In this document: piece after piece, positions 1 through 9,517 of the stretch
How the letters are laid out: every line of letters starts with the position of its first letter
How positions within the stretch are numbered: the stretch's first letter is position 1
Virus genome (UHGV): UHGV-0006354
Reading direction: 5' to 3' (one strand)
Source of the DNA: a virus
Length of the DNA: 30,849 bases
Notes under the pieces: generated by a model
What the model was told of the DNA's origin: nothing
Seen by the model: the letters and a program-made list of their open reading frames with translations, nothing else
The model's database searches: none
Made by a program: the position numbers and the translations under genes

Positions 1-4
1 AGAT

Positions 5-32
5 AAAAAAGGGCCAGCCAATTGGCCAGCCC
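5..32 (-). terminator. Rho-independent terminator on minus strand, about 125 nt downstream of int
   Basis: Minus-strand RNA GGGCUGGCC-AAUU-GGCUGGCCC (9 bp stem with two G-U pairs) followed by UUUUUU (plus 5-10 is the A-run). Confidence 0.5.
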
Positions 33-158
33 TTCTTAACAGGATGTCGCTTAAGCGAAATCTTAGTTAAGACGCTCCTATTAACACCCCACAACAAACA
101 AACACTTACCATACAAAACAATTAGTTAAAGTAATTTTTAATGCAATGAATTGCAGTA

Positions 159-1208
159 TTATGCAACCTCTGCCGCCATATTGTCGCCAACATACAGCGA
201 TAACGGATTAAGGGTTACAGCTTGTTCAAGGTGGTCAGGAGCAAAGTGTGCATACTTCATTGTTTCTCGAATATTGGCATGCCCGAGAATTTTCTGCAGT
301 ACCAGTATATTCCCGCCGTTCATCATAAAATGCGCACCAAAAGTATGACGCAAAACGTGCGTCTTCTGCCCTTCCGTCAATTCAATATTCGTTAGTTTGA
401 GCATCTTCTTAAACTCCTGATAGCAGGGTTTAAACATTCTGCCTTGACGTACGGACAACTCGTCGTACAGCCATTTAGGAATAGGAACTGTGCGATTCTT
501 CTTACCTTTGGTTTTGGTGAACGTCAGTTTATATGGAGAAAGTTGAGGGCGGGTCAATCTCTCCGCTTCCCCCCATCGAGCGCCGGTTGCAAGGCACACC
601 TTAACAATCATGGTGAGGTCTTCTTTGCCGTATTGCTCGCAGGCTCGAAACAGCTCCGGGAGCTGAGACAAAGTTAGCCAGGACATTTCTTTCTCAGCCT
701 CTTTGAATACTCGGATCCCATCAAGTGGATTGGGTAGGCTCCACTCCCCTAACCGGCGGAGCTCATTAAACACTGCTTCTAGGTATTGTTGTTCGCGATT
801 GACGGTTATAGGTTTGGCGATCCATTTCGAGGGGTCTTTATGATAACCGTTGTCTATTTCACCACGTAATCGACGGTCACGATAATGAGCCCAGTCTTTC
901 GCGGTAAGGCGAGATGCAATCGGGTCACCAAGCCCATTACATACGATTTGAAGCTTTGCTAACCTCGACTTACTGGCGACTAACGCTTGACCGTGCAAAT
1001 TGTGCCAAAGCTGAATAATCTCGCTTAAGCGTCGGCGGTCTTCTTTCTTGCCGAGCCACGGCTTATCTTCACTCTCGCTTTTGGTAAATGCTTCAAATGC
1101 CTCGGCCTCACCTTTGGTATTGAATTGCCGACGTATACGCCGCCCTTCTCGACCATTTGGATAGAGTTCACACAACCATTTTCCACTTTTTTGTTTACTT
1201 ACAGTCAT
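159..1208 (-). CDS. int: Tyrosine site-specific integrase, P2/186 Int family
   Basis: 349 aa, ATG at 1206-1208; C-terminal catalytic region HTFGAHFMMNGGNILVLQKILGHANIRETMKYAHF (R..HxxR..Y) closely resembles P2 Int. Confidence 0.9.
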   Translation of the reverse strand: MTVSKQKSGKWLCELYPNGREGRRIRRQFNTKGEAEAFEAFTKSESEDKPWLGKKEDRRRLSEIIQLWHNLHGQALVASKSRLAKLQIVCNGLGDPIASRLTAKDWAHYRDRRLRGEIDNGYHKDPSKWIAKPITVNREQQYLEAVFNELRRLGEWSLPNPLDGIRVFKEAEKEMSWLTLSQLPELFRACEQYGKEDLTMIVKVCLATGARWGEAERLTRPQLSPYKLTFTKTKGKKNRTVPIPKWLYDELSVRQGRMFKPCYQEFKKMLKLTNIELTEGQKTHVLRHTFGAHFMMNGGNILVLQKILGHANIRETMKYAHFAPDHLEQAVTLNPLSLYVGDNMAAEVA

Positions 1209-1232
1209 TGCGATACCGAGGCTAAAAGAAAA

Positions 1233-1571
1233 TTAATTACAAAGGGCTGTAGCGGCATCAATCACCGGTGAAATTGAAATTTTAACGCCGTCATACTCAG
1301 GGTCATCCTTCCATACGTCATCTAAGTTAGACCCCTCCAGCTTTCCTGATTTAACAGCATCTACCGCCATGCCATTCAGAGGATATCTATCATCAGTTTT
1401 GATGTCATACACAAAAGCATAAGCACGGTTAACACATGATACCTTTGCCTTTTCAAAGGTTAGAGGCCACTTGTCACCATATGCAGCGCCGTCTATCTCT
1501 TTAAACTTCTCAGCGGCTATGGCTGAGGAAGAAAGTGCAATGCAGACTATCGCAAATATAAACTTTTTCAT
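1233..1571 (-). CDS. Small secreted/periplasmic protein of unknown function (cargo gene between int and cI)
   Basis: 112 aa; N-terminal signal peptide MKKFIFAIVCIALSSSAIAAE; two Cys (46 and 111); AAGGAG Shine-Dalgarno 7 nt upstream; visibly AT-richer than neighbours. Confidence 0.6.
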   Translation of the reverse strand: MKKFIFAIVCIALSSSAIAAEKFKEIDGAAYGDKWPLTFEKAKVSCVNRAYAFVYDIKTDDRYPLNGMAVDAVKSGKLEGSNLDDVWKDDPEYDGVKISISPVIDAATALCN

Positions 1572-1580
1572 TACTGCTCC

Positions 1581-2426
1581 TTAAACATGCTTTTCCAAAG
1601 TAAAAATAACCGCACCTGATGGTGTGATATCTGAAATATTACATTCAAACTCAGCAGACTTATTTGATAACCTGACCTTTCCGCCTGGCAACCTGATTAC
1701 GTCAAAAACATCGAGTGCGCCATCAATACCAATAAGCCAGCGACCATTTCCTATCTTCGAGTTAGAACTATCAACAAGCCAAGATGTGCTCACACCATCA
1801 ATAAACACTAAATCATCAGTATTTGATGGAACCATAGATATATCAGGAGTCCAGCGTCCGATATCTTTGAGTTCGCCCGCCTCGAGGCGGCACTTTCTAA
1901 TCGTTAAAGCATTTGCCGGTTCACCATCATTACTGTTACGCATCTGGCCTTTTCCGGTTGATAACCATTCTAACGATACGCCAGTATCAAGGGCGCAAGT
2001 GACAACCACGTCACCGGGGAAAAAATCGCGTCTAACCCAAGTGCTTATAGTGCCGGAAGATATACCTAATAAATCTCCAAGCTCTTTTTGCAGAGTAAAA
2101 CCATACGCATCGAGAATCCGACGCAGAACCGCCCTCCCTCCATTTGCCATGATTTCATCATAGAGTTGCTTACCTTTAAGCTTAGTTTTCACCACTTCAA
2201 ATCTTGCATTTGCAAGCTCACCATTAATTAGCCATCGCAGGTCAGCTCCAGTATCAAGAGCACACTCAACGAAAACGTTGCTAGGGATTACGTTTCTAGC
2301 AAGCCAGCTACTCACGTTGTTTGCATGTATGCCAAGCCTTTCGGCTAGTTCCTTTTGCTGCTTAAAGCCGTATGCAGAAAGGACACGTTCCAATGCGGCA
2401 GACGCATTAACATCATTTTTAGACAT
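1581..2426 (-). CDS. cI: CI-type immunity repressor with two tandem 186-CI-like HTH domains
   Basis: Track ORF 1581-2615 trimmed to internal ATG (MSKND) at 2424-2426; internal repeat YGFKQQKELAERLGI..VFVECALDTGADLRWLINGE and YGFTLQKELGDLLGI..VVVTCALDTGVSLEWLSTGKG; no recognisable S24 Ser-Lys autocleavage motif. Confidence 0.7.
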   Translation of the reverse strand: MSKNDVNASAALERVLSAYGFKQQKELAERLGIHANNVSSWLARNVIPSNVFVECALDTGADLRWLINGELANARFEVVKTKLKGKQLYDEIMANGGRAVLRRILDAYGFTLQKELGDLLGISSGTISTWVRRDFFPGDVVVTCALDTGVSLEWLSTGKGQMRNSNDGEPANALTIRKCRLEAGELKDIGRWTPDISMVPSNTDDLVFIDGVSTSWLVDSSNSKIGNGRWLIGIDGALDVFDVIRLPGGKVRLSNKSAEFECNISDITPSGAVIFTLEKHV

Positions 2427-2447
2427 GTGACACCAACAATAATTTTG

Positions 2448-2476
2448 TTTACAACCAAAATTTAGCGATCTATATT
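2448..2476 (+). promoter_or_regulatory. Candidate rightward lytic promoter (pR-like) in the cI/apl switch region
   Basis: -35 TTTACA (2448-2453), 17-nt spacer, -10 TATATT (2471-2476); about 60 nt upstream of the 2540 ATG. Confidence 0.4.
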
Positions 2477-2539
2477 GGTGCTCATCGACCAAGATGCACA
2501 CCACTGCACTACATTTCAAACAACAGGAGATAATGCGAT

Positions 2540-2911
2540 ATGTCAGATGCAAAATCAATCTCGACGAACGACTCGCAAAACTCACAAAATCAAACTGTGA
2601 TGCTAGATCCAACACAGTTTGATGCCATCGTTACCGCCATGCTGCCAGCTCTACAGACAATGATTCGCTCCGCTATGTCAGACACGATGACTGTGAAAGA
2701 CTTCGCCGCTACTCGCGGTGTTAGCGAGCGTCTGGTCTGGCAATGGCTCGATGAGGGAGTCCTTCTCAAAGCTCCGACCAAAGACTTTTCCAACAAAGAG
2801 GAAGCTGCTAAACGAAGCCGAACCCTCGTAAATGTAAAAGCATGGCGCGATAAGCTGACTCAACAAGCGATTGATTGTCGCTACATCGACCAGCGCACCG
2901 CTCTTAACTGA
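2540..2911 (+). CDS. Apl/Cox-like HTH regulator-excisionase, first gene of the lytic operon
   Basis: 123 aa, divergent from cI; HTH-like segment VKDFAATRGVSERLVWQWLDEGVL; an internal start at MLDPTQ (2600) is possible. Confidence 0.55.
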   Translation: MSDAKSISTNDSQNSQNQTVMLDPTQFDAIVTAMLPALQTMIRSAMSDTMTVKDFAATRGVSERLVWQWLDEGVLLKAPTKDFSNKEEAAKRSRTLVNVKAWRDKLTQQAIDCRYIDQRTALN

Positions 2912-2943
2912 ATTTGATTATGCAAGTTAGAGGGAATTTAACC

Positions 2944-3453
2944 ATGTTTGATTTTCAGGTTTCCAAACATCCCCACTATGACGAAGCATGCCGCATTTTC
3001 GCACAGCGTCACAACATGGCGAAGCTGGCCGAGCGTGCAGGTATGAACGTTCAAACGTTACGTAACAAGCTCAACCCGGAACAGCCTCACCAGTTCACGC
3101 CGCCTGAATTGTGGCTGCTGACTGACCTGACCGAAGACTCAACCCTCATTGATGGTTTTTTAGCGCAGATTCACTGCCTACCATGCGTGCCGGTTAATGA
3201 GTTGGCTAAAGACAAATTGCAGTCTTATGTCATGCGCGCAATGCGTGAACTCGGCGAACTGGCGAGCGGCGCGGTATCTGATGAACGTCTGACCACTGCC
3301 CGTAAGCACAACATGATTGAAAGCGTTAACTCCGGCATTCGCATGTTGTCATTGTCGGCTCTGGCGCTGCATGCACGTCTGCAGACTAATCCAGCTATGT
3401 CGAGCGTGGTCGATACCATGAGCGGTATTGGCGCATCGTTTGGTCTGATTTGA
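2944..3453 (+). CDS. cII: CII-like lysogeny-establishment transcriptional activator (186 CII type)
   Basis: 169 aa from ATG 2944 (track ORF begins at TTG 2914); GAGGG Shine-Dalgarno; N-terminus MFDFQVSKHPHYDEACRIFAQRHNMAKLAERAGMNVQTLRNKLNPEQ matches my recollection of 186 CII. Confidence 0.7.
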   Translation: MFDFQVSKHPHYDEACRIFAQRHNMAKLAERAGMNVQTLRNKLNPEQPHQFTPPELWLLTDLTEDSTLIDGFLAQIHCLPCVPVNELAKDKLQSYVMRAMRELGELASGAVSDERLTTARKHNMIESVNSGIRMLSLSALALHARLQTNPAMSSVVDTMSGIGASFGLI

Positions 3454-3460
3454 GGTGCGT

Positions 3461-3661
3461 ATGCTGAAAAGTGAACCGTCATTCGCATCTCTGATCGTTA
3501 AGCAAAGCCCCGGCATGCACTACGGCCACGGCTGGATCGCAGGTAAGGACGGCAAGCGCTGGCACCCGAGCCACTCGCAGGCTGATTTACTGGCTGGCCT
3601 CTCTACTCAAAAGCGGGGGGGATCATGGCTATCGAAGCTGTTTCCGCGACTGTTCCGCTAA
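3461..3661 (+). CDS. Hypothetical early protein
   Basis: 66 aa from ATG 3461 (track start GTG 3455), immediately after the cII stop. Confidence 0.4.
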   Translation: MLKSEPSFASLIVKQSPGMHYGHGWIAGKDGKRWHPSHSQADLLAGLSTQKRGGSWLSKLFPRLFR

Positions 3662-4480: not shown

Positions 4481-6703
4481 TTGGCTGTTCAATTCGCTTA
4501 TCCGTGGAACGTCCCACGGTCGGCAATCTCCAGCCCATACCTTACTTATGAGCAACAGCATCGCCGCGACCGTATGTTCGCGGCTTTGCTGCATGCAAAA
4601 AAGGTGCTTTCTCTCCAGCCCGACTGCGTGCGGTTAGATGTTTATCGCACTGCTGCGGTGCTGGAGCAAAATCAGGGTAGTCAACGAGCCAATGCATTTT
4701 TAATCAACTTCTGCAAAAAGGCATTGCCGCGTCTTGAACTGGTCGCAAAAAAATACGAATGCGCTGGTATCAATAGCAAGGTATCAACCGCTGTTTTTGG
4801 AAGTCATTTTGATACTCAGCAAATGCAATATCTGTCGTCACGCATGGTTAATATGGTCGCCCGATATAACCGTCTCCCGGATATGTCGCGCGCTGATGTT
4901 GACCTGTTGGCCGCTGATATTGCTAATTTCATTCGTGGTGAACTTGCCAACATTAATGACCACGGATTCGGCGAGCTTAAAACGCTGTACACCTGGTATA
5001 TTCGTGCTGGCTTTATTTCCCTCCAATTTAACGTTATCCCACCACATTGGGAGCGGGTTGAAAAAAAATATGTCGGTGCGGATGAAATCGCACCGGCTAT
5101 CGCCAAAATGTTTAACGATGGGTGGTGGCGCGGTCGTTTGCGCCGTGTTGCAGCTACGTGGCGCGAACACCTGCAAATTGCAGTCGGCAACGTCAGTAAG
5201 AAAAAAAACACTTACGCGAGTAAAAACTGCGTGACTGACTGGCGTGAACAAAAGCGCCGCACTCGTGAATTTCTCAAAGGTCTGGATCTCGAAGACGAAG
5301 ACGGCAACCGTATCAGCCTGATTGAAAAATATGATGGCTCAGTTGCTAACCCTGCGATTCGCCGCTGTGAGCTCATGACCCGCATTCGTGGGTTTGAAAA
5401 CATCTGTAATGAGCTCGGTTATGTCGGTGAGTTTTACACTCTAACCGCGCCGTCAAAATATCACGCCACGACTAAAGCCGGTTACCGTAACAGCAAATGG
5501 AGCGGTGCCAGCCCGGCTGACACGCAAAACTATCTAACCGGTATCTGGGCGCGTATCCGTGCCAAACTACATCGGGAAGATGTCCGTATTTTCGGTATTC
5601 GTGTCGCCGAGCCTCATCACGACGGCACTCCACACTGGCACATGCTGATGTTCATGCTGCCGGAAGATGTTGAATATGTTCGCTCCATCGTCCGTAAATA
5701 CGCATGGAAAGAAGACCGCCACGAACTGAAAAGCGATAAATCCAAAAAAGCACGTTTCCACGCCGAGTCCATTGACCCAGAGAAAGGGAGCGCAACCGGC
5801 TATGTTGCTAAATACATTTCAAAAAATATCGACGGTTATGCTCTCGATGGTGAAACCGATGATGAAAGCGGTGAGCTGCTGAAAGAGACAGCCCCCGCCG
5901 TTTCAGCATGGGCTGCGCGCTGGCACATCCGTCAGTTTCAGTTTATCGGTGGTGCGCCGGTGACGGTTTACCGTGAGTTGCGTCGCCTCGCTGATACCGA
6001 AACCGCGCACGGACTGAGCGTTGAGTTTGCCGCCGTCCATGATGCCGCCGACGCTGGTGACTGGGCTGGTTATGTTAATGCTCAGGGTGGGCCGTTTGTC
6101 CGTCGCGATGATTTACAGGTGCGCACACTGTATGAACCGCGTACCGAGCTTAATCAGTACGGTGAGGAAACAGTATGTATTAAGGGAGTCTACGATTCCT
6201 CCATAGGTGCAGGGAGTCCGATTTTAACCCGGCTCACTCAGTGGAAGATTGTTCCGAAGCGTGCTGTTGATTTGGCCGTTGACCTTCAGGACGGCAAAGC
6301 CGTCCCTCGGAGTTCTGTCAATAACTGTACGGGAAGCGAAAGCGATCCACCGATACTGGATTTAACAAAACCACTGAGTCGGCGTGAAAGACGAGAATTG
6401 ACCAACCGACTCAGGAAGCAAAAGCCAGCAGCACGGCGAAAATTCATCCACGGAACGGATGAGCAAAACGCAGCTATAGCTAAAACTATCGACGAGATAC
6501 ATCTGACAACCGGCATTAATATCAGCCGGGGCGAAGCCCTGCACCTGATGGCCGGTGGTAAAAGTTGTTTTGATGGTAAATGGCTACGCGGAACGGCCAA
6601 AGGAGAAATATTTTCCGCAGCACCATCGCATGAGGCTAAAGCTCGGAAAATCCTTAATCGTGTTGCGGCGATGGCTGAAGCATCAAAACCAATACATGAG
6701 TAA
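4481..6703 (+). CDS. A: Rolling-circle replication initiation endonuclease (P2 gpA family)
   Basis: 740 aa; TTG start with N-terminus MAV..AYPWNVPR like P2 A; conserved EPHHDGTPHWHMLMF HUH-type motif and YVAKYISKNIDGY tyrosine motif. Confidence 0.85.
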   Translation: MAVQFAYPWNVPRSAISSPYLTYEQQHRRDRMFAALLHAKKVLSLQPDCVRLDVYRTAAVLEQNQGSQRANAFLINFCKKALPRLELVAKKYECAGINSKVSTAVFGSHFDTQQMQYLSSRMVNMVARYNRLPDMSRADVDLLAADIANFIRGELANINDHGFGELKTLYTWYIRAGFISLQFNVIPPHWERVEKKYVGADEIAPAIAKMFNDGWWRGRLRRVAATWREHLQIAVGNVSKKKNTYASKNCVTDWREQKRRTREFLKGLDLEDEDGNRISLIEKYDGSVANPAIRRCELMTRIRGFENICNELGYVGEFYTLTAPSKYHATTKAGYRNSKWSGASPADTQNYLTGIWARIRAKLHREDVRIFGIRVAEPHHDGTPHWHMLMFMLPEDVEYVRSIVRKYAWKEDRHELKSDKSKKARFHAESIDPEKGSATGYVAKYISKNIDGYALDGETDDESGELLKETAPAVSAWAARWHIRQFQFIGGAPVTVYRELRRLADTETAHGLSVEFAAVHDAADAGDWAGYVNAQGGPFVRRDDLQVRTLYEPRTELNQYGEETVCIKGVYDSSIGAGSPILTRLTQWKIVPKRAVDLAVDLQDGKAVPRSSVNNCTGSESDPPILDLTKPLSRRERRELTNRLRKQKPAARRKFIHGTDEQNAAIAKTIDEIHLTTGINISRGEALHLMAGGKSCFDGKWLRGTAKGEIFSAAPSHEAKARKILNRVAAMAEASKPIHE

Positions 6704-6777
6704 TTCATATCCATATCATGCACATACAGCAATCGCTCTATTCGTTTTTTTTCTTCCCATCTTTTGCCAATACGTGC

Positions 6778-6797
6778 TACTGTATAAATATACAGTA
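6778..6797 (+). promoter_or_regulatory. LexA operator (SOS box) 20 nt upstream of the 6817 ORF
   Basis: TACTGTATAAATATACAGTA; CTGT-N8-ACAG at 6780-6795, near-perfect match to the E. coli LexA consensus. Confidence 0.7.
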
Positions 6798-6816
6798 ACC
6801 CTATGGGAGGGATTTC

Positions 6817-6999
6817 ATGGTTGGCGAACATTTCAGCCGAACGCAGCAAAAGTGGGCTTGTGTGCAATTTATTGCCGAGGTATCTCTGATTGCAAACTGC
6901 AAGCCATCAGACTTAAAGCTCGCGCTCACTCTCATTGCAGACCTAGCAAACAGCGAAAATAACGAAACCGAAGATGATAATTTTTATAAGGCTGATTAG
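6817..6999 (+). CDS. LexA-controlled small protein, candidate Tum-like antirepressor module
   Basis: 60 aa; GGGAGG Shine-Dalgarno; directly downstream of the SOS box; ends at TAG in the same frame as the following DinI-like ORF. Confidence 0.5.
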   Translation: MVGEHFSRTQQKWACVQFIAEVSLIANCKPSDLKLALTLIADLANSENNETEDDNFYKAD

Positions 7000-7002
7000 A
7001 TT

Positions 7003-7236
7003 ATGAGAATCAATATCACGTTGGATAAAGAGCAAAAAATTAGTCAGACAACGTTGGATGCACTTGAGGCTGAGCTGTACCGCAATCTTCAACCTATTTA
7101 CCCAAAGACTGCTATCCGCATTCGTAAGGGCTCAGCTAATGGCGTTGAGCTAAGCGGTTTGAAACTGGACGAAGATAAAAAACGAGTGATGGAAATCATG
7201 CAGCAGGTATGGGAGGACGATAGCTGGCTGCATTAA
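7003..7236 (+). CDS. DinI-family protein
   Basis: 77 aa; MRINITLDKEQKIS...ALEAEL...KKRVMEIMQQVWEDDSWLH follows the E. coli DinI pattern (MRIEV..., ...ISEILQETWESADDW). Confidence 0.7.
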   Translation: MRINITLDKEQKISQTTLDALEAELYRNLQPIYPKTAIRIRKGSANGVELSGLKLDEDKKRVMEIMQQVWEDDSWLH

Positions 7237-8533: not shown

Positions 8534-9517
8534 CTAATTTACATGTATGTAGAGTTCACTGTCACTAGACCAGTCGGGGCACTCTAAAGCAAGCCCAAAC
8601 TGCTTGTATATTTCATCAATGACTAATGTTATCTCAAGATAATCATCAAAACCTGTAATGCGTTGATCATTGAATTTTTCATAAAGATTCTGAAATGCAG
8701 CTCCTAACTCTGATAATTGATTCCTTATTTTTGAGTTGGATAGTGTAAGGGCTAGTTTTGGGTCGTATTCATTAATATTGATGTTTAGAGAATGGACGTA
8801 ACCTATCGCATAAGCATAGGAGTTGATAATTAGCTTGAAGCGTTTTTTTGCTTCAAGATACATTTCATTCAGAGAAATATTGCCTCTTTTATAGTTCAGA
8901 GTGAGATTTTCAATCTCGTCAGACACTTCATTTACAACAGTATCAAGATTCTCTAGAAATAAATCGATAGTCTCTTGAGGGGCTGACCACGAAGACATGT
9001 AATTAGCAAGATATTCAGACCATGCACGAGTGGCTGTGATAAGCAGCGCGTCGCCATACTCGTTGACTGTAAAGTTTTGGGCTAAGCATGTTAGTAAGTT
9101 TTTTTCATGTACGTGCACTAACTCATGGTGAATGCGATGGATGACTGCGCGGTATCCTTCTTCATTTAATTTCAGGAAGCTACCATCATTAAAAAGCTCA
9201 CCAAAAAAATCAATAGATAGCACAAGGGTATATTCTTCACATAGCCCATCGCTGCCAATTTTTGTTACTAATTGCCCGACGGCTGCGCCCTGTTTGCTAT
9301 TGGTAAATGAACTAGGGGATTTGTGTTGGTAAATGGAAGTCACATTTTGAAGAGCTTCACTGAAATTATAGGAGACAACCACGCATTTTAATTTTGAGAT
9401 ATCAAGATTGAGATTTTTTGTTAAGACTCGAATAGCTTCTAGCGTGAAGTTACCGATATTATTTGCTTCTTGCTCAGTAGTGAAACCTTCGAGGGTTATT
9501 TTAAAATCAGTTTCCAA
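8534..9517 (-). CDS. AT-rich cargo gene: HExxH-motif (zinc-metallopeptidase-like) protein of unknown function, inserted between cos and portal gene Q
   Basis: 327 aa, TTG start with GGAG Shine-Dalgarno; HELVH at residues 131-135; no signal peptide or transmembrane segment; plausible sigma70 promoter (TTGAAG-17-TATAGT on minus strand, plus about 9557-9585). Confidence 0.8.
   Translation of the reverse strand: METDFKITLEGFTTEQEANNIGNFTLEAIRVLTKNLNLDISKLKCVVVSYNFSEALQNVTSIYQHKSPSSFTNSKQGAAVGQLVTKIGSDGLCEEYTLVLSIDFFGELFNDGSFLKLNEEGYRAVIHRIHHELVHVHEKNLLTCLAQNFTVNEYGDALLITATRAWSEYLANYMSSWSAPQETIDLFLENLDTVVNEVSDEIENLTLNYKRGNISLNEMYLEAKKRFKLIINSYAYAIGYVHSLNININEYDPKLALTLSNSKIRNQLSELGAAFQNLYEKFNDQRITGFDDYLEITLVIDEIYKQFGLALECPDWSSDSELYIHVN

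What the first reader, a model, noticed from the sequence alone, without database searches (positions are those of the whole stretch)
1233..1571. Secreted small protein cargo gene wedged between int and the repressor
P2/186-type prophages normally have the repressor and int adjacent on the lysogenic transcript. Here a 112-aa ORF with a classical signal peptide, its own strong Shine-Dalgarno, two cysteines and lower G+C sits between them on the same strand. It would be co-transcribed with cI and int in the lysogen, which suggests a lysogenic-conversion or envelope-modifying function.
Basis: partly seen in the sequence, partly recalled or inferred. Interest (0 to 1): 0.55.

Follow-up and report, generated by a model that had tools for sequence, protein, structure and literature searches.

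The report
Prophage periplasmic YebY-like cargo gene
A real, conserved small gene between the repressor and integrase genes of a P2/186-type E. coli prophage encodes an exported YebY/DUF2511-fold protein; the gene and its position are already catalogued, but its function has never been tested.

Summary
The ORF at 1233-1571 (minus strand, 112 aa) is real. It has a Sec-type signal peptide (predicted cleavage AIA|AEK) and a strong Shine-Dalgarno that overlaps the cI stop codon. It is under purifying selection (mature part dN/dS about 0.2).

It belongs to Pfam DUF2511/YebY (67.8 bits, cut-off 21). Its predicted fold matches the E. coli YebY crystal structure, and the family's Trp and Cys pair are conserved. 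It is the homologue of Salmonella phage PSP3 gp28 (phrog_2950).

The order int-DUF2511-cI is standard in PSP3-type Eganvirus phages and was already noted in the 2021 YebY paper. The exact protein is in public databases on 919 contigs.

Among 73 related loci, the cI-int junction behaves as a cargo slot:
- 46 carry DUF2511.
- 12 distant relatives have cI and int abutting, as in phage 186.
- 3 have an empty gap.
- 5 carry other cargo, including unrelated exported proteins.
- 7 could not be scored.

DUF2511 alleles reassort independently of cI alleles.

Function is untested. My best guess, by analogy with the periplasmic exclusion protein Glo in the same slot of phage K139, is a periplasmic protective or superinfection-exclusion factor. 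The main rival is YebY-like damping of copper import.

Interest is modest.

The parts
1233..1571 (-). CDS of the 112-aa DUF2511/YebY-family precursor, homologue of PSP3 gp28 (phrog_2950)
   Evidence: ORF. Pfam PF10709 at 67.8 bits. phrog_2950 matched full length, E = 1.8e-55. PDB YebY 7n0j, E = 3.8e-8. Fold match TM 0.84. 66-84% aa identity to the phage copies.
1515..1571 (-). Predicted Sec signal peptide (codons 1-19, cleavage AIA|AEK). Not a lipoprotein, because there is no lipobox.
   Evidence: Rule-based analysis of the window protein and 60 homologues. AF2 pLDDT is about 52 for residues 1-20. YebY was shown to be periplasmic in PMC8689200.
1577..1582 (-). Shine-Dalgarno AAGGAG, 5 nt before the ATG, overlapping the cI stop codon (1581-1583). 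Translational coupling to cI is likely.
   Evidence: Sequence. The 8-9 nt spacer from cI stop to ATG is conserved in 117 related loci.
1581..2426 (-). cI immunity repressor, PSP3 type: 281 aa, two tandem Phage_CI_repr HTH domains plus Phage_CI_C
   Evidence: Pfam. The RefSeq annotation of a near-identical prophage gives the same 846-nt CDS.
159..1208 (-). Tyrosine integrase, last gene of the lysogenic operon
   Evidence: Pfam Int_N plus Phage_integrase. phrog_1.
2530..2558 (-). Candidate lysogenic promoter pL (TTGATT-17-CATTAT), convergent with pR. Inferred.
   Evidence: Read. It matches 8/12, below the scanner threshold. Its -10 and -35 sit at the same offsets from the cox/apl ATG (4 nt before, 13 nt inside) as the annotated pL of phage 186.
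2448..2476 (+). Candidate early lytic promoter pR (TTTACA-17-TATATT)
   Evidence: Best promoter-like site in the scan, 10/12. Positioned as in phage 186.
2944..2971 (.). Sequence identical to the CII-binding part of the phage 186 establishment promoter pE, which fires leftward into the lysogenic operon
   Evidence: Alignment with 186 and the 186 annotation.
2540..2911 (+). cox/apl-position gene (phrog_3554; weak match to Cox-like excisionase)
   Evidence: Annotated as Cox in phage Midge.
2944..3453 (+). cII, 95% DNA identity to phage 186 cII
1..77 (.). Host DNA between yfiB and rplS. The prophage end (attL) lies at about position 77.
   Evidence: All 5426 E. coli genomes match only positions 1-77. 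yfiB and dgcN flank the prophage in strain TW10598.

Best explanation
Shown, or nearly so. The ORF is a genuine accessory ('moron') gene of a PSP3-type P2/186-family prophage that sits between yfiB and rplS in E. coli. It encodes a roughly 10-kDa acidic protein (pI about 4.6). That protein is exported by a cleavable Sec signal peptide and adopts the disulfide-stabilised alpha/beta fold of DUF2511 (YebY, MlbQ).

Inferred from anatomy. The gene is the middle gene of the lysogenic operon pL/pE -> cI -> DUF2511 -> int and is translationally coupled to cI. It would therefore be made whenever repressor is made, that is, during establishment and maintenance of lysogeny.

Inferred by analogy. In the periplasm it acts as a small soluble binding protein that protects the lysogen at the envelope. 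The most likely form is superinfection exclusion, interfering with an incoming phage after adsorption. Less specifically, it could neutralise another periplasm-acting agent.

The identity and anatomy part I hold at about 0.95. The exclusion or protection mechanism I hold at about 0.35. The confidence given is for the whole statement.
For: Identity:
- Pfam DUF2511, phrog_2950 and the YebY sequence match.
- The AF2 model has mean pLDDT 79, with most of the core near 90. It matches 7n0j YebY (TMt 0.84) and MlbQ 2mvo.
- The family-invariant residues W35, C46, Y63 and C111 are present.

Export:
- Signal-peptide architecture is conserved in the 57 homologues where the cleavage landmark could be located, despite sequence turnover.
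- YebY is experimentally periplasmic with a Cys48-Cys113 disulfide (PMC8689200).

Functional gene: dN/dS is 0.06-0.25.

Operon:
- There are no promoter or terminator sites in the 9-nt and 24-nt gaps.
- The pL geometry equals that of phage 186.
- The pE CII site is identical to that of 186.

Cargo slot:
- Counts across 73 loci are 46 DUF2511, 12 abutting, 3 empty and 5 other cargo.
- The other cargo includes three unrelated small exported proteins, membrane proteins, and an HNH nuclease that matches PADLOC models.
- DUF2511 alleles reassort independently of cI.

Precedent for the mechanism:
- In the Peduoviridae phage K139 the operon PL-cI-orf2-glo-int carries Glo, annotated 'periplasmic protein; involved in phage exclusion', in the same slot (PMC3952083).
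- K139 orf2 has a 35%-identical homologue (E = 1e-52) directly after cI in an enterobacterial PSP3-type locus. The slot therefore exchanges cargo across genera.
- In S. thermophilus phage TP-J34 the gene ltp lies between int and the repressor-type gene. It encodes an exported lipoprotein, made in the lysogen, that blocks DNA injection.
- The region between the tail genes or int and CI or gpA is a described minor accessory and defence hotspot of P2-like phages.
Against: - No experiment on any phage DUF2511 protein was found.
- There is no PADLOC match.
- There is no sequence or profile similarity to Glo.
- No BFVD viral structure matches at E <= 0.001.
- A crude per-site test found no positively selected sites, and overall selection is purifying. 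That is not the classic signature of an arms-race exclusion factor.
- The two studied family members act on copper import (YebY) and on a lantibiotic (MlbQ), not on phages.
- Transcription from pL is inferred, not measured.
Confidence: 0.4

Rival explanations
1. YebY-like lysogenic conversion of copper handling. The phage protein mimics chromosomal YebY and damps copper import through the host CopD/CopC pair YebZ/YobA. This would change periplasmic and cytoplasmic copper and, through MarR, copper-dependent antibiotic tolerance of the lysogen.
For: It is a true DUF2511 family member with the YebY fold and the Cys pair. Co-expression of YebY with YebZ lowers copper accumulation, and the AZY operon is needed for mar activation (PMC11923076). 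All named hosts of these prophages are Enterobacterales, where AZY operons are common.
Against: - It is only about 30% identical to E. coli YebY.
- The phage clade is a separate old lineage. Its nearest non-phage relatives are at 39% identity, so it is not a recent capture of host yebY.
- There is no yobA or yebZ next to it.
- The host already has its own yebY.
- Single yebY deletion gave no reporter phenotype, and AZY does not affect copper tolerance.
- Other occupants of the same slot look like exclusion or defence cargo, not metal genes.
Confidence: 0.2
2. MlbQ-like immunity. The periplasmic protein binds and sequesters an antimicrobial peptide or bacteriocin that acts at the inner membrane or lipid II, making lysogens more resistant to a competitor's toxin.
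For: The fold matches MlbQ (2mvo and 6qfp). MlbQ confers resistance to the lantibiotic NAI-107, proposed to be by direct binding (PMC8689200; PMC4828448). The mature protein is acidic, which would suit binding of cationic peptides.
Against: - There is no lipoprotein anchor.
- There is no ABC transporter or bacteriocin genes nearby.
- Lantibiotics are mostly kept out by the Gram-negative outer membrane. This point rests on my own knowledge, not on a tool result.
- Identity to MlbQ is only about 21%.
Confidence: 0.12
3. A phage-cycle function rather than host conversion. For example, the protein could tune int expression or lysogeny establishment, or act in lysis or envelope remodelling during induction.
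For: Linkage to cI is tight and conserved, with an 8-9 nt spacer. The gene lies on the same transcript as int (inferred).
Against: Relatives with the same repressor and integrase families lack it or carry unrelated genes there. Phages 186 and P2 do without it. An exported protein is unlikely to regulate a cytoplasmic integrase.
Confidence: 0.08
4. Not a functional gene: a chance ORF or a decaying remnant.
For: One related contig has the gene interrupted after about 22 codons, by what looks like an IS end (L105).
Against: There are 60 unique intact variants of 112-113 aa. dN/dS is about 0.2. The SD, signal peptide, Trp and Cys pair are conserved. The exact protein occurs on 919 contigs.
Confidence: 0.02

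Closest known systems
Salmonella phage PSP3 gp28/orf28 and its homologues in phages SW9, SI22, SEN1, RCIP0057, Midge and vB_EcoM-613R3 (phrog_2950)
   Same: Same family (63-84% aa identity), same length, same signal peptide architecture, and the same position int-x-cI on the same strand.
   Different: The window copy is a different allele. Its first 28 or so residues resemble another allele group (P0018, P0019, P0021), while the rest is SW9-like, so it looks mosaic. None of these homologues has a tested function.
E. coli YebY (AZY operon, PDB 7n0j), Pfam DUF2511
   Same: The fold, the conserved Trp, the Cys pair that forms the disulfide, the YPLN motif, a Sec signal peptide and periplasmic location.
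   Different: About 30% identity. There is no yobA/yebZ operon context. It is prophage-borne and repressor-linked. Copper-related activity was not tested.
MlbQ, the lantibiotic NAI-107 self-resistance lipoprotein of Microbispora (PDB 2mvo)
   Same: DUF2511 fold with the disulfide in the same place. An extracytoplasmic small binding protein.
   Different: MlbQ is lipid-anchored through a long linker and sits in a lantibiotic/ABC-transporter cluster of a Gram-positive. The window protein is soluble and sits in a prophage.
Glo of Vibrio phage K139 (Peduoviridae)
   Same: A small protein annotated as periplasmic, encoded between cI and int on the PL lysogenic operon of a P2-family phage, and involved in phage exclusion. 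This is the closest analogue for how the window gene may work.
   Different: There is no detectable sequence or profile similarity. K139 has an extra BRCT gene between cI and glo.
Ltp of S. thermophilus phage TP-J34 (Sie genes within lysogeny modules)
   Same: An exported protein encoded next to int inside the lysogeny module and expressed in the prophage state.
   Different: It is a lipoprotein of a Gram-positive siphovirus with an unrelated sequence. Its mechanism (blocking DNA injection via the tape measure protein) is known for Ltp only.

Membership tests
Pfam PF10709 DUF2511 / YebY family | Profile HMM match above the curated gathering score | tested here: met
   67.8 bits against a cut-off of 21, residues 29-111 on profile positions 5-87 of 87. 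490 family representatives at E <= 1e-3.
Pfam PF10709 DUF2511 / YebY family | Two strictly conserved cysteines (YebY Cys48 and Cys113) and the conserved Trp (YebY Trp37) | tested here: met
   C46, C111 and W35 are invariant in the family alignment and align with those of YebY. Disulfide formation itself is not testable here.
Pfam PF10709 DUF2511 / YebY family | Alpha/beta fold: a four-stranded antiparallel sheet packed by helices | tested here: met
   The AF2 model (pLDDT 79) matches 7n0j at TMt 0.84 and rmsd 2.8 Å over 92 columns. It also matches MlbQ. The structure is predicted, not solved.
Pfam PF10709 DUF2511 / YebY family | Extracytoplasmic location through a signal peptide | tested here: met
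   The (-3,-1) rule, n-region charge and h-region are conserved in the 57 homologues that could be scored. Actual localisation is not testable here.
AZY-operon YebY orthologues (copper import module) | Encoded with yobA (CopC) and yebZ (CopD) | tested here: not met
   The neighbours are cI and int. It should not be filed as an AZY YebY orthologue.
AZY-operon YebY orthologues (copper import module) | Modulates YebZ-dependent copper uptake; low-affinity Cu binding when reduced | not testable with these tools
   Requires uptake and binding assays as in PMC8689200 and PMC11923076.
PSP3 gp28 group (phrog_2950) | Full-length profile match, and synteny int - gene - PSP3-type cI on one strand | tested here: met
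   phrog_2950 at E = 1.8e-55 over 1-112 of 112. Synteny holds in 7 phage records and in all 123 fetched IMG/VR and genome loci that contain the gene (the two scans overlap and are not deduplicated); none has DUF2511 without cI.
Prophage superinfection-exclusion proteins of lysogeny modules (K139 Glo, TP-J34 Ltp) | Exported protein encoded between repressor and integrase on the lysogenic transcript | tested here: met
   Position and signal peptide are shown. The transcript is inferred.
Prophage superinfection-exclusion proteins of lysogeny modules (K139 Glo, TP-J34 Ltp) | Homology to a known Sie protein | tested here: not met
   No BLASTP or hhalign similarity to Glo. No PADLOC model matches.
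Prophage superinfection-exclusion proteins of lysogeny modules (K139 Glo, TP-J34 Ltp) | Reduces infection by other phages without blocking adsorption | not testable with these tools
   Needs plating, adsorption and DNA-entry assays.
MlbQ-type lantibiotic immunity lipoproteins | Lipoprotein anchor and a lantibiotic/ABC-transporter gene neighbourhood | tested here: not met
   No lipobox in the window protein (1 match among 60 homologues). The neighbourhood is a prophage switch region.

The most novel reading that the evidence does not exclude
The phage DUF2511 protein is a soluble periplasmic superinfection-exclusion or entry-blocking factor. It would be one of several interchangeable exported cargos of a cI-int 'lysogenic operon slot' shared across Peduoviridae (the K139 Glo slot). 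If so, this would give the DUF2511/YebY fold its first clear phenotype in Gram-negative bacteria and would suggest that chromosomal YebY and MlbQ work by the same kind of periplasmic sequestration. A second non-excluded reading is that prophages use it to rewire host copper import and mar-dependent antibiotic tolerance.
Probability: 0.3. Interest if true: 0.55.

Novelty: already known. Interest (0 to 1): 0.3.

Why it matters
The protein would be made in every lysogen of a prophage type found in E. coli, Salmonella, Klebsiella, Enterobacter, Citrobacter and Pantoea. It belongs to a family, DUF2511, whose molecular role is still unclear even for E. coli YebY.

The gene is small and soluble, it is dispensable for the phage (relatives lack it), and it sits in a simple operon. 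It is therefore an easy handle for finding what the DUF2511 fold binds. If it excludes phages or changes copper or antibiotic responses, it would be a modest but clean case of lysogenic conversion.

As it stands, it is an annotated gene of unknown function in a known position.

Tried and rejected
- NCBIfam gave no match for the ORF.
- PADLOC gave no match.
- The BFVD viral structure library gave nothing at E <= 0.001.
- Rfam on 1-3500 gave only a sub-threshold chance hit.
- No convincing internal promoter or terminator lies between cI, the ORF and int.
- Glo of K139 is not a homologue by BLASTP or hhalign. The 134-aa exported cargo of L106 is not related to Glo either.
- From seven phages I first thought cI and DUF2511 diverge together as one immunity cassette. 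The larger sample rejected this. There are 25 pairs with cI at 97% or more but DUF2511 below 75%, and 9 pairs the other way round.
- A tree-based count of synonymous and nonsynonymous changes found no site with an excess of replacements. I therefore dropped the idea of an arms-race signature.
- 'Lower G+C marks foreign origin' was rejected, because the gene has the same G+C as cI.
- A tblastn search of sequenced phages, even at E <= 5, finds DUF2511 only in PSP3-type phages.
- A literature search for the RefSeq accession found nothing.
- The two proteomics papers that mention DUF2511 do not establish expression of the phage copy. One detected peptide closely resembles the chromosomal YebY sequence; the other protein could not be assigned to either copy.
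- The original Glo paper (Nesper et al. 1999) could not be read. Glo's role is therefore cited from the GenBank annotation and from a secondary paper.

Full report
**Observation**

The window holds an ATG-initiated ORF at 1233..1571 on the minus strand (112 aa). It lies between the integrase gene (159..1208, minus) and a CI-type repressor gene (1581..2426, minus).
- The ORF follows the cI stop codon by 9 nt. An AAGGAG Shine-Dalgarno (1577-1582) overlaps that stop codon.
- It precedes the int ATG by 24 nt.
- The N-terminus MKKFIFAIVCIALSSSAIA|AEK has a +2 n-region, a strongly hydrophobic core, and Ala at positions -3 and -1.

- The precursor has three cysteines. Cys10 is in the signal peptide, so the mature protein has two.
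- G+C (0.422) is below int (0.471) and the window mean (0.521), but equals cI (0.437).

In phage 186, cI and int abut. In P2, C and int are separated by 115 nt with no gene between them.

**What it is**

The protein matches Pfam DUF2511 (PF10709) at 67.8 bits against a cut-off of 21. It matches phrog_2950 over its full length and the crystallised E. coli YebY, 7n0j, at E = 3.8e-8.

An AlphaFold2 model built on 22 homologues has mean pLDDT 79, with most of the core near 90. It superposes on YebY with a TM-score of 0.84 (normalised by target) and also matches the lantibiotic-resistance protein MlbQ.

The family-invariant residues W35, C46, Y63 and C111 are all present. In YebY the two corresponding cysteines form a disulfide, and the protein is periplasmic (PMC8689200).

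An exhaustive HMMER search finds 490 family representatives. Only one lies at E <= 1e-30, and the next-best relative is 39% identical. The phage proteins are therefore a distinct, old clade and not a recent copy of host yebY.

**Whose gene it is**

The window is a PSP3-type Eganvirus (P2/186 family) prophage.
- It lies between yfiB and rplS. Window positions 1-77 are host DNA found in all 5426 complete E. coli genomes.
- About 67 of those genomes carry at least 80% of this switch region. 17 carry this exact allele of the gene.
- The ORF is the homologue of PSP3 orf28/gp28 (66% identity) and of genes in SW9 and SI22 (84%), RCIP0057, SEN1, Midge and 613R3. All of these sit in the order int-gene-cI.
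- The identical protein is seen on 919 contigs and is named 'DUF2511 domain-containing' or 'YebY family protein'.

The entity and its position are therefore already known.

**Is it a working gene?**

Among 76 non-redundant loci there are 60 unique proteins of 112-113 aa.
- Pairwise dN/dS of the mature part against seven phages is 0.06-0.25. Tree-based counting gives 0.22 for the mature part and 0.41 for the signal peptide.
- The signal peptide diverges to about 30% identity. It still keeps its charge, its hydrophobic core and small residues at -3 and -1 in the 57 variants where the cleavage landmark could be located.
- No site shows an excess of replacements.

**Is it cargo?**

I fetched 73 IMG/VR loci with the repressor as query and 80 with the DUF2511 protein as query. 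I then scored what lies between cI and int.

| State of the cI-int junction (73 repressor-fetched loci) | Loci |
|---|---|
| DUF2511 | 46 |
| cI and int abutting (6-12 nt; cI 40-45% identical to the window's) | 12 |
| Empty gap of about 80 nt | 3 |
| Other cargo | 5 |
| Not scorable | 7 |

Every locus with the DUF2511 gene has this repressor type upstream.

The other cargo includes:
- two unrelated families of small proteins with signal peptides (L106 and L125, 134-137 aa; L140, 141 aa plus 64 aa);
- membrane proteins with a weakly EACC1-like partner (L138, L139).

Two of the loci where no int lay within reach also carry genes directly after cI:
- L141 has a BRCT-like gene followed by an HNH nuclease that matches PADLOC models;
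- L144 has genes with no family match.

DUF2511 alleles and cI alleles reassort. There are 25 locus pairs with cI at 97% or more but DUF2511 below 75%, and 9 pairs the reverse. The window's own copy looks mosaic. So the cI-int junction is a cargo slot, and DUF2511 is its commonest occupant in this lineage. This falls within the minor accessory and defence hotspots already reported for P2-like phages.

**Expression (inferred)**

- No promoter-like or terminator-like site falls in the two short intergenic gaps.
- A TTGATT-17-CATTAT element at 2530-2558 (minus strand) sits at exactly the same offsets from the cox/apl start codon as the annotated pL of phage 186. It faces a strong pR-like site at 2448-2476.
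- The first 28 nt of cII, which form the CII-binding part of 186 pE, are identical.

The gene should therefore be transcribed with cI and int from both pL and pE. The 8-9 nt spacing, conserved in 117 loci, suggests translational coupling to cI.

**How it most likely works**

Nothing is known experimentally about the phage protein. Three leads exist.

(a) Positional precedent. In the Peduoviridae phage K139 the lysogenic operon is PL-cI-orf2-glo-int. Glo is annotated as a periplasmic protein involved in phage exclusion. K139 orf2 has a 35%-identical homologue (E = 1e-52) right after cI in an enterobacterial PSP3-type locus. TP-J34 carries the exported exclusion lipoprotein Ltp next to int in its lysogeny module.

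(b) YebY lowers YebZ-dependent copper uptake.

(c) MlbQ confers resistance to a lantibiotic, proposed to be by binding it.

I rank a periplasmic protective or exclusion role first (about 0.35). Copper modulation comes second (0.2), peptide immunity third (0.12), a phage-cycle role fourth (0.08) and a non-gene last (0.02).

Against the first choice:
- there is no homology to Glo;
- there is no PADLOC hit;
- selection is purifying, with no diversifying signal.

**Verdict**

The gene is already annotated and its context already published. What remains open is function, which is cheap to test. Novelty: already known. Interest: 0.3.

Noticed in passing
window 1581-2426 (-): The repressor is the long PSP3 type: 281 aa, with two tandem Phage_CI_repr HTH domains before the CI C-terminal domain, whereas the 186 cI gene is 579 nt. 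The mechanical ORF list extends it to 2615 from a GTG, across pR/pL and into cox. The ATG at 2426 agrees with RefSeq annotation.
   Followed up: partly
L106:4859-5263, L125:4822-5235, L140:4841-5266 and 5295-5489: In some PSP3-type relatives the cI-int slot holds other small proteins with signal peptides and no Pfam or PADLOC match. Exported proteins therefore recur in this slot.
   Followed up: partly
L141:4871-5752 and 5841-7055; L163 (K139):2194-3099: An enterobacterial locus carries, directly after cI, a BRCT-like protein that is 35% identical (E = 1e-52) to orf2 of Vibrio phage K139. It is followed by an HNH nuclease that matches PADLOC HNH models. The slot's cargo is shared between distant Peduoviridae.
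   Followed up: partly
L138:4914-6365 and 6568-6903; L139:4977-5615 and 5831-6166: Another slot variant: a 483-aa or 212-aa membrane protein plus a conserved 111-aa protein with a weak EACC1 (Effector Associated Constant Component 1) match at 18 bits, below the cut-off.
   Followed up: no
L105:4860-4966: The DUF2511 gene is interrupted after about 22 codons by GGGCTTTGTTGAATAAATCG..., which from memory looks like an IS903-type end, at the end of the contig.
   Followed up: no
window 1487-1571 versus the rest of the ORF: The window allele looks mosaic. The signal peptide and first mature residues resemble alleles P0018, P0019 and P0021. Residues 21-112 are 95% identical to phage SW9, whose signal peptide is only 35% identical.
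   Followed up: partly
L123, L124: These two loci have cI 57-58% identical to the window's and carry a DUF2511 copy that is only about 35% identical. A few loci in the census have an extra 440-610 nt between cI and DUF2511 or between DUF2511 and int; I did not work out which loci these are.
   Followed up: no
window 1-77: This is host DNA shared by all 5426 complete E. coli genomes. In non-lysogens it runs into the 3' end of rplS. The prophage is inserted between yfiB and rplS, not at a tRNA gene as phage 186 is.
   Followed up: partly
window 7003-7236 (+): A 77-aa DinI-like protein (Pfam DinI, E = 7e-24) is encoded downstream of the replication gene. From memory, it could be a Tum-like SOS antirepressor as in phage 186.
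   Followed up: no
window 8534-9517 (-): A 327-aa ORF lies in the classical gpA-portal hotspot (the old/tin position). It has no Pfam or PADLOC match and is a possible uncharacterised defence cargo.
   Followed up: partly
P0033 (161 aa): This DUF2511 domain is fused to an N-terminal zinc-ribbon plus a transmembrane segment. The N-terminal part matches other PHROGs (14275, 38187, 10292), so the domain also occurs membrane-anchored.
   Followed up: partly
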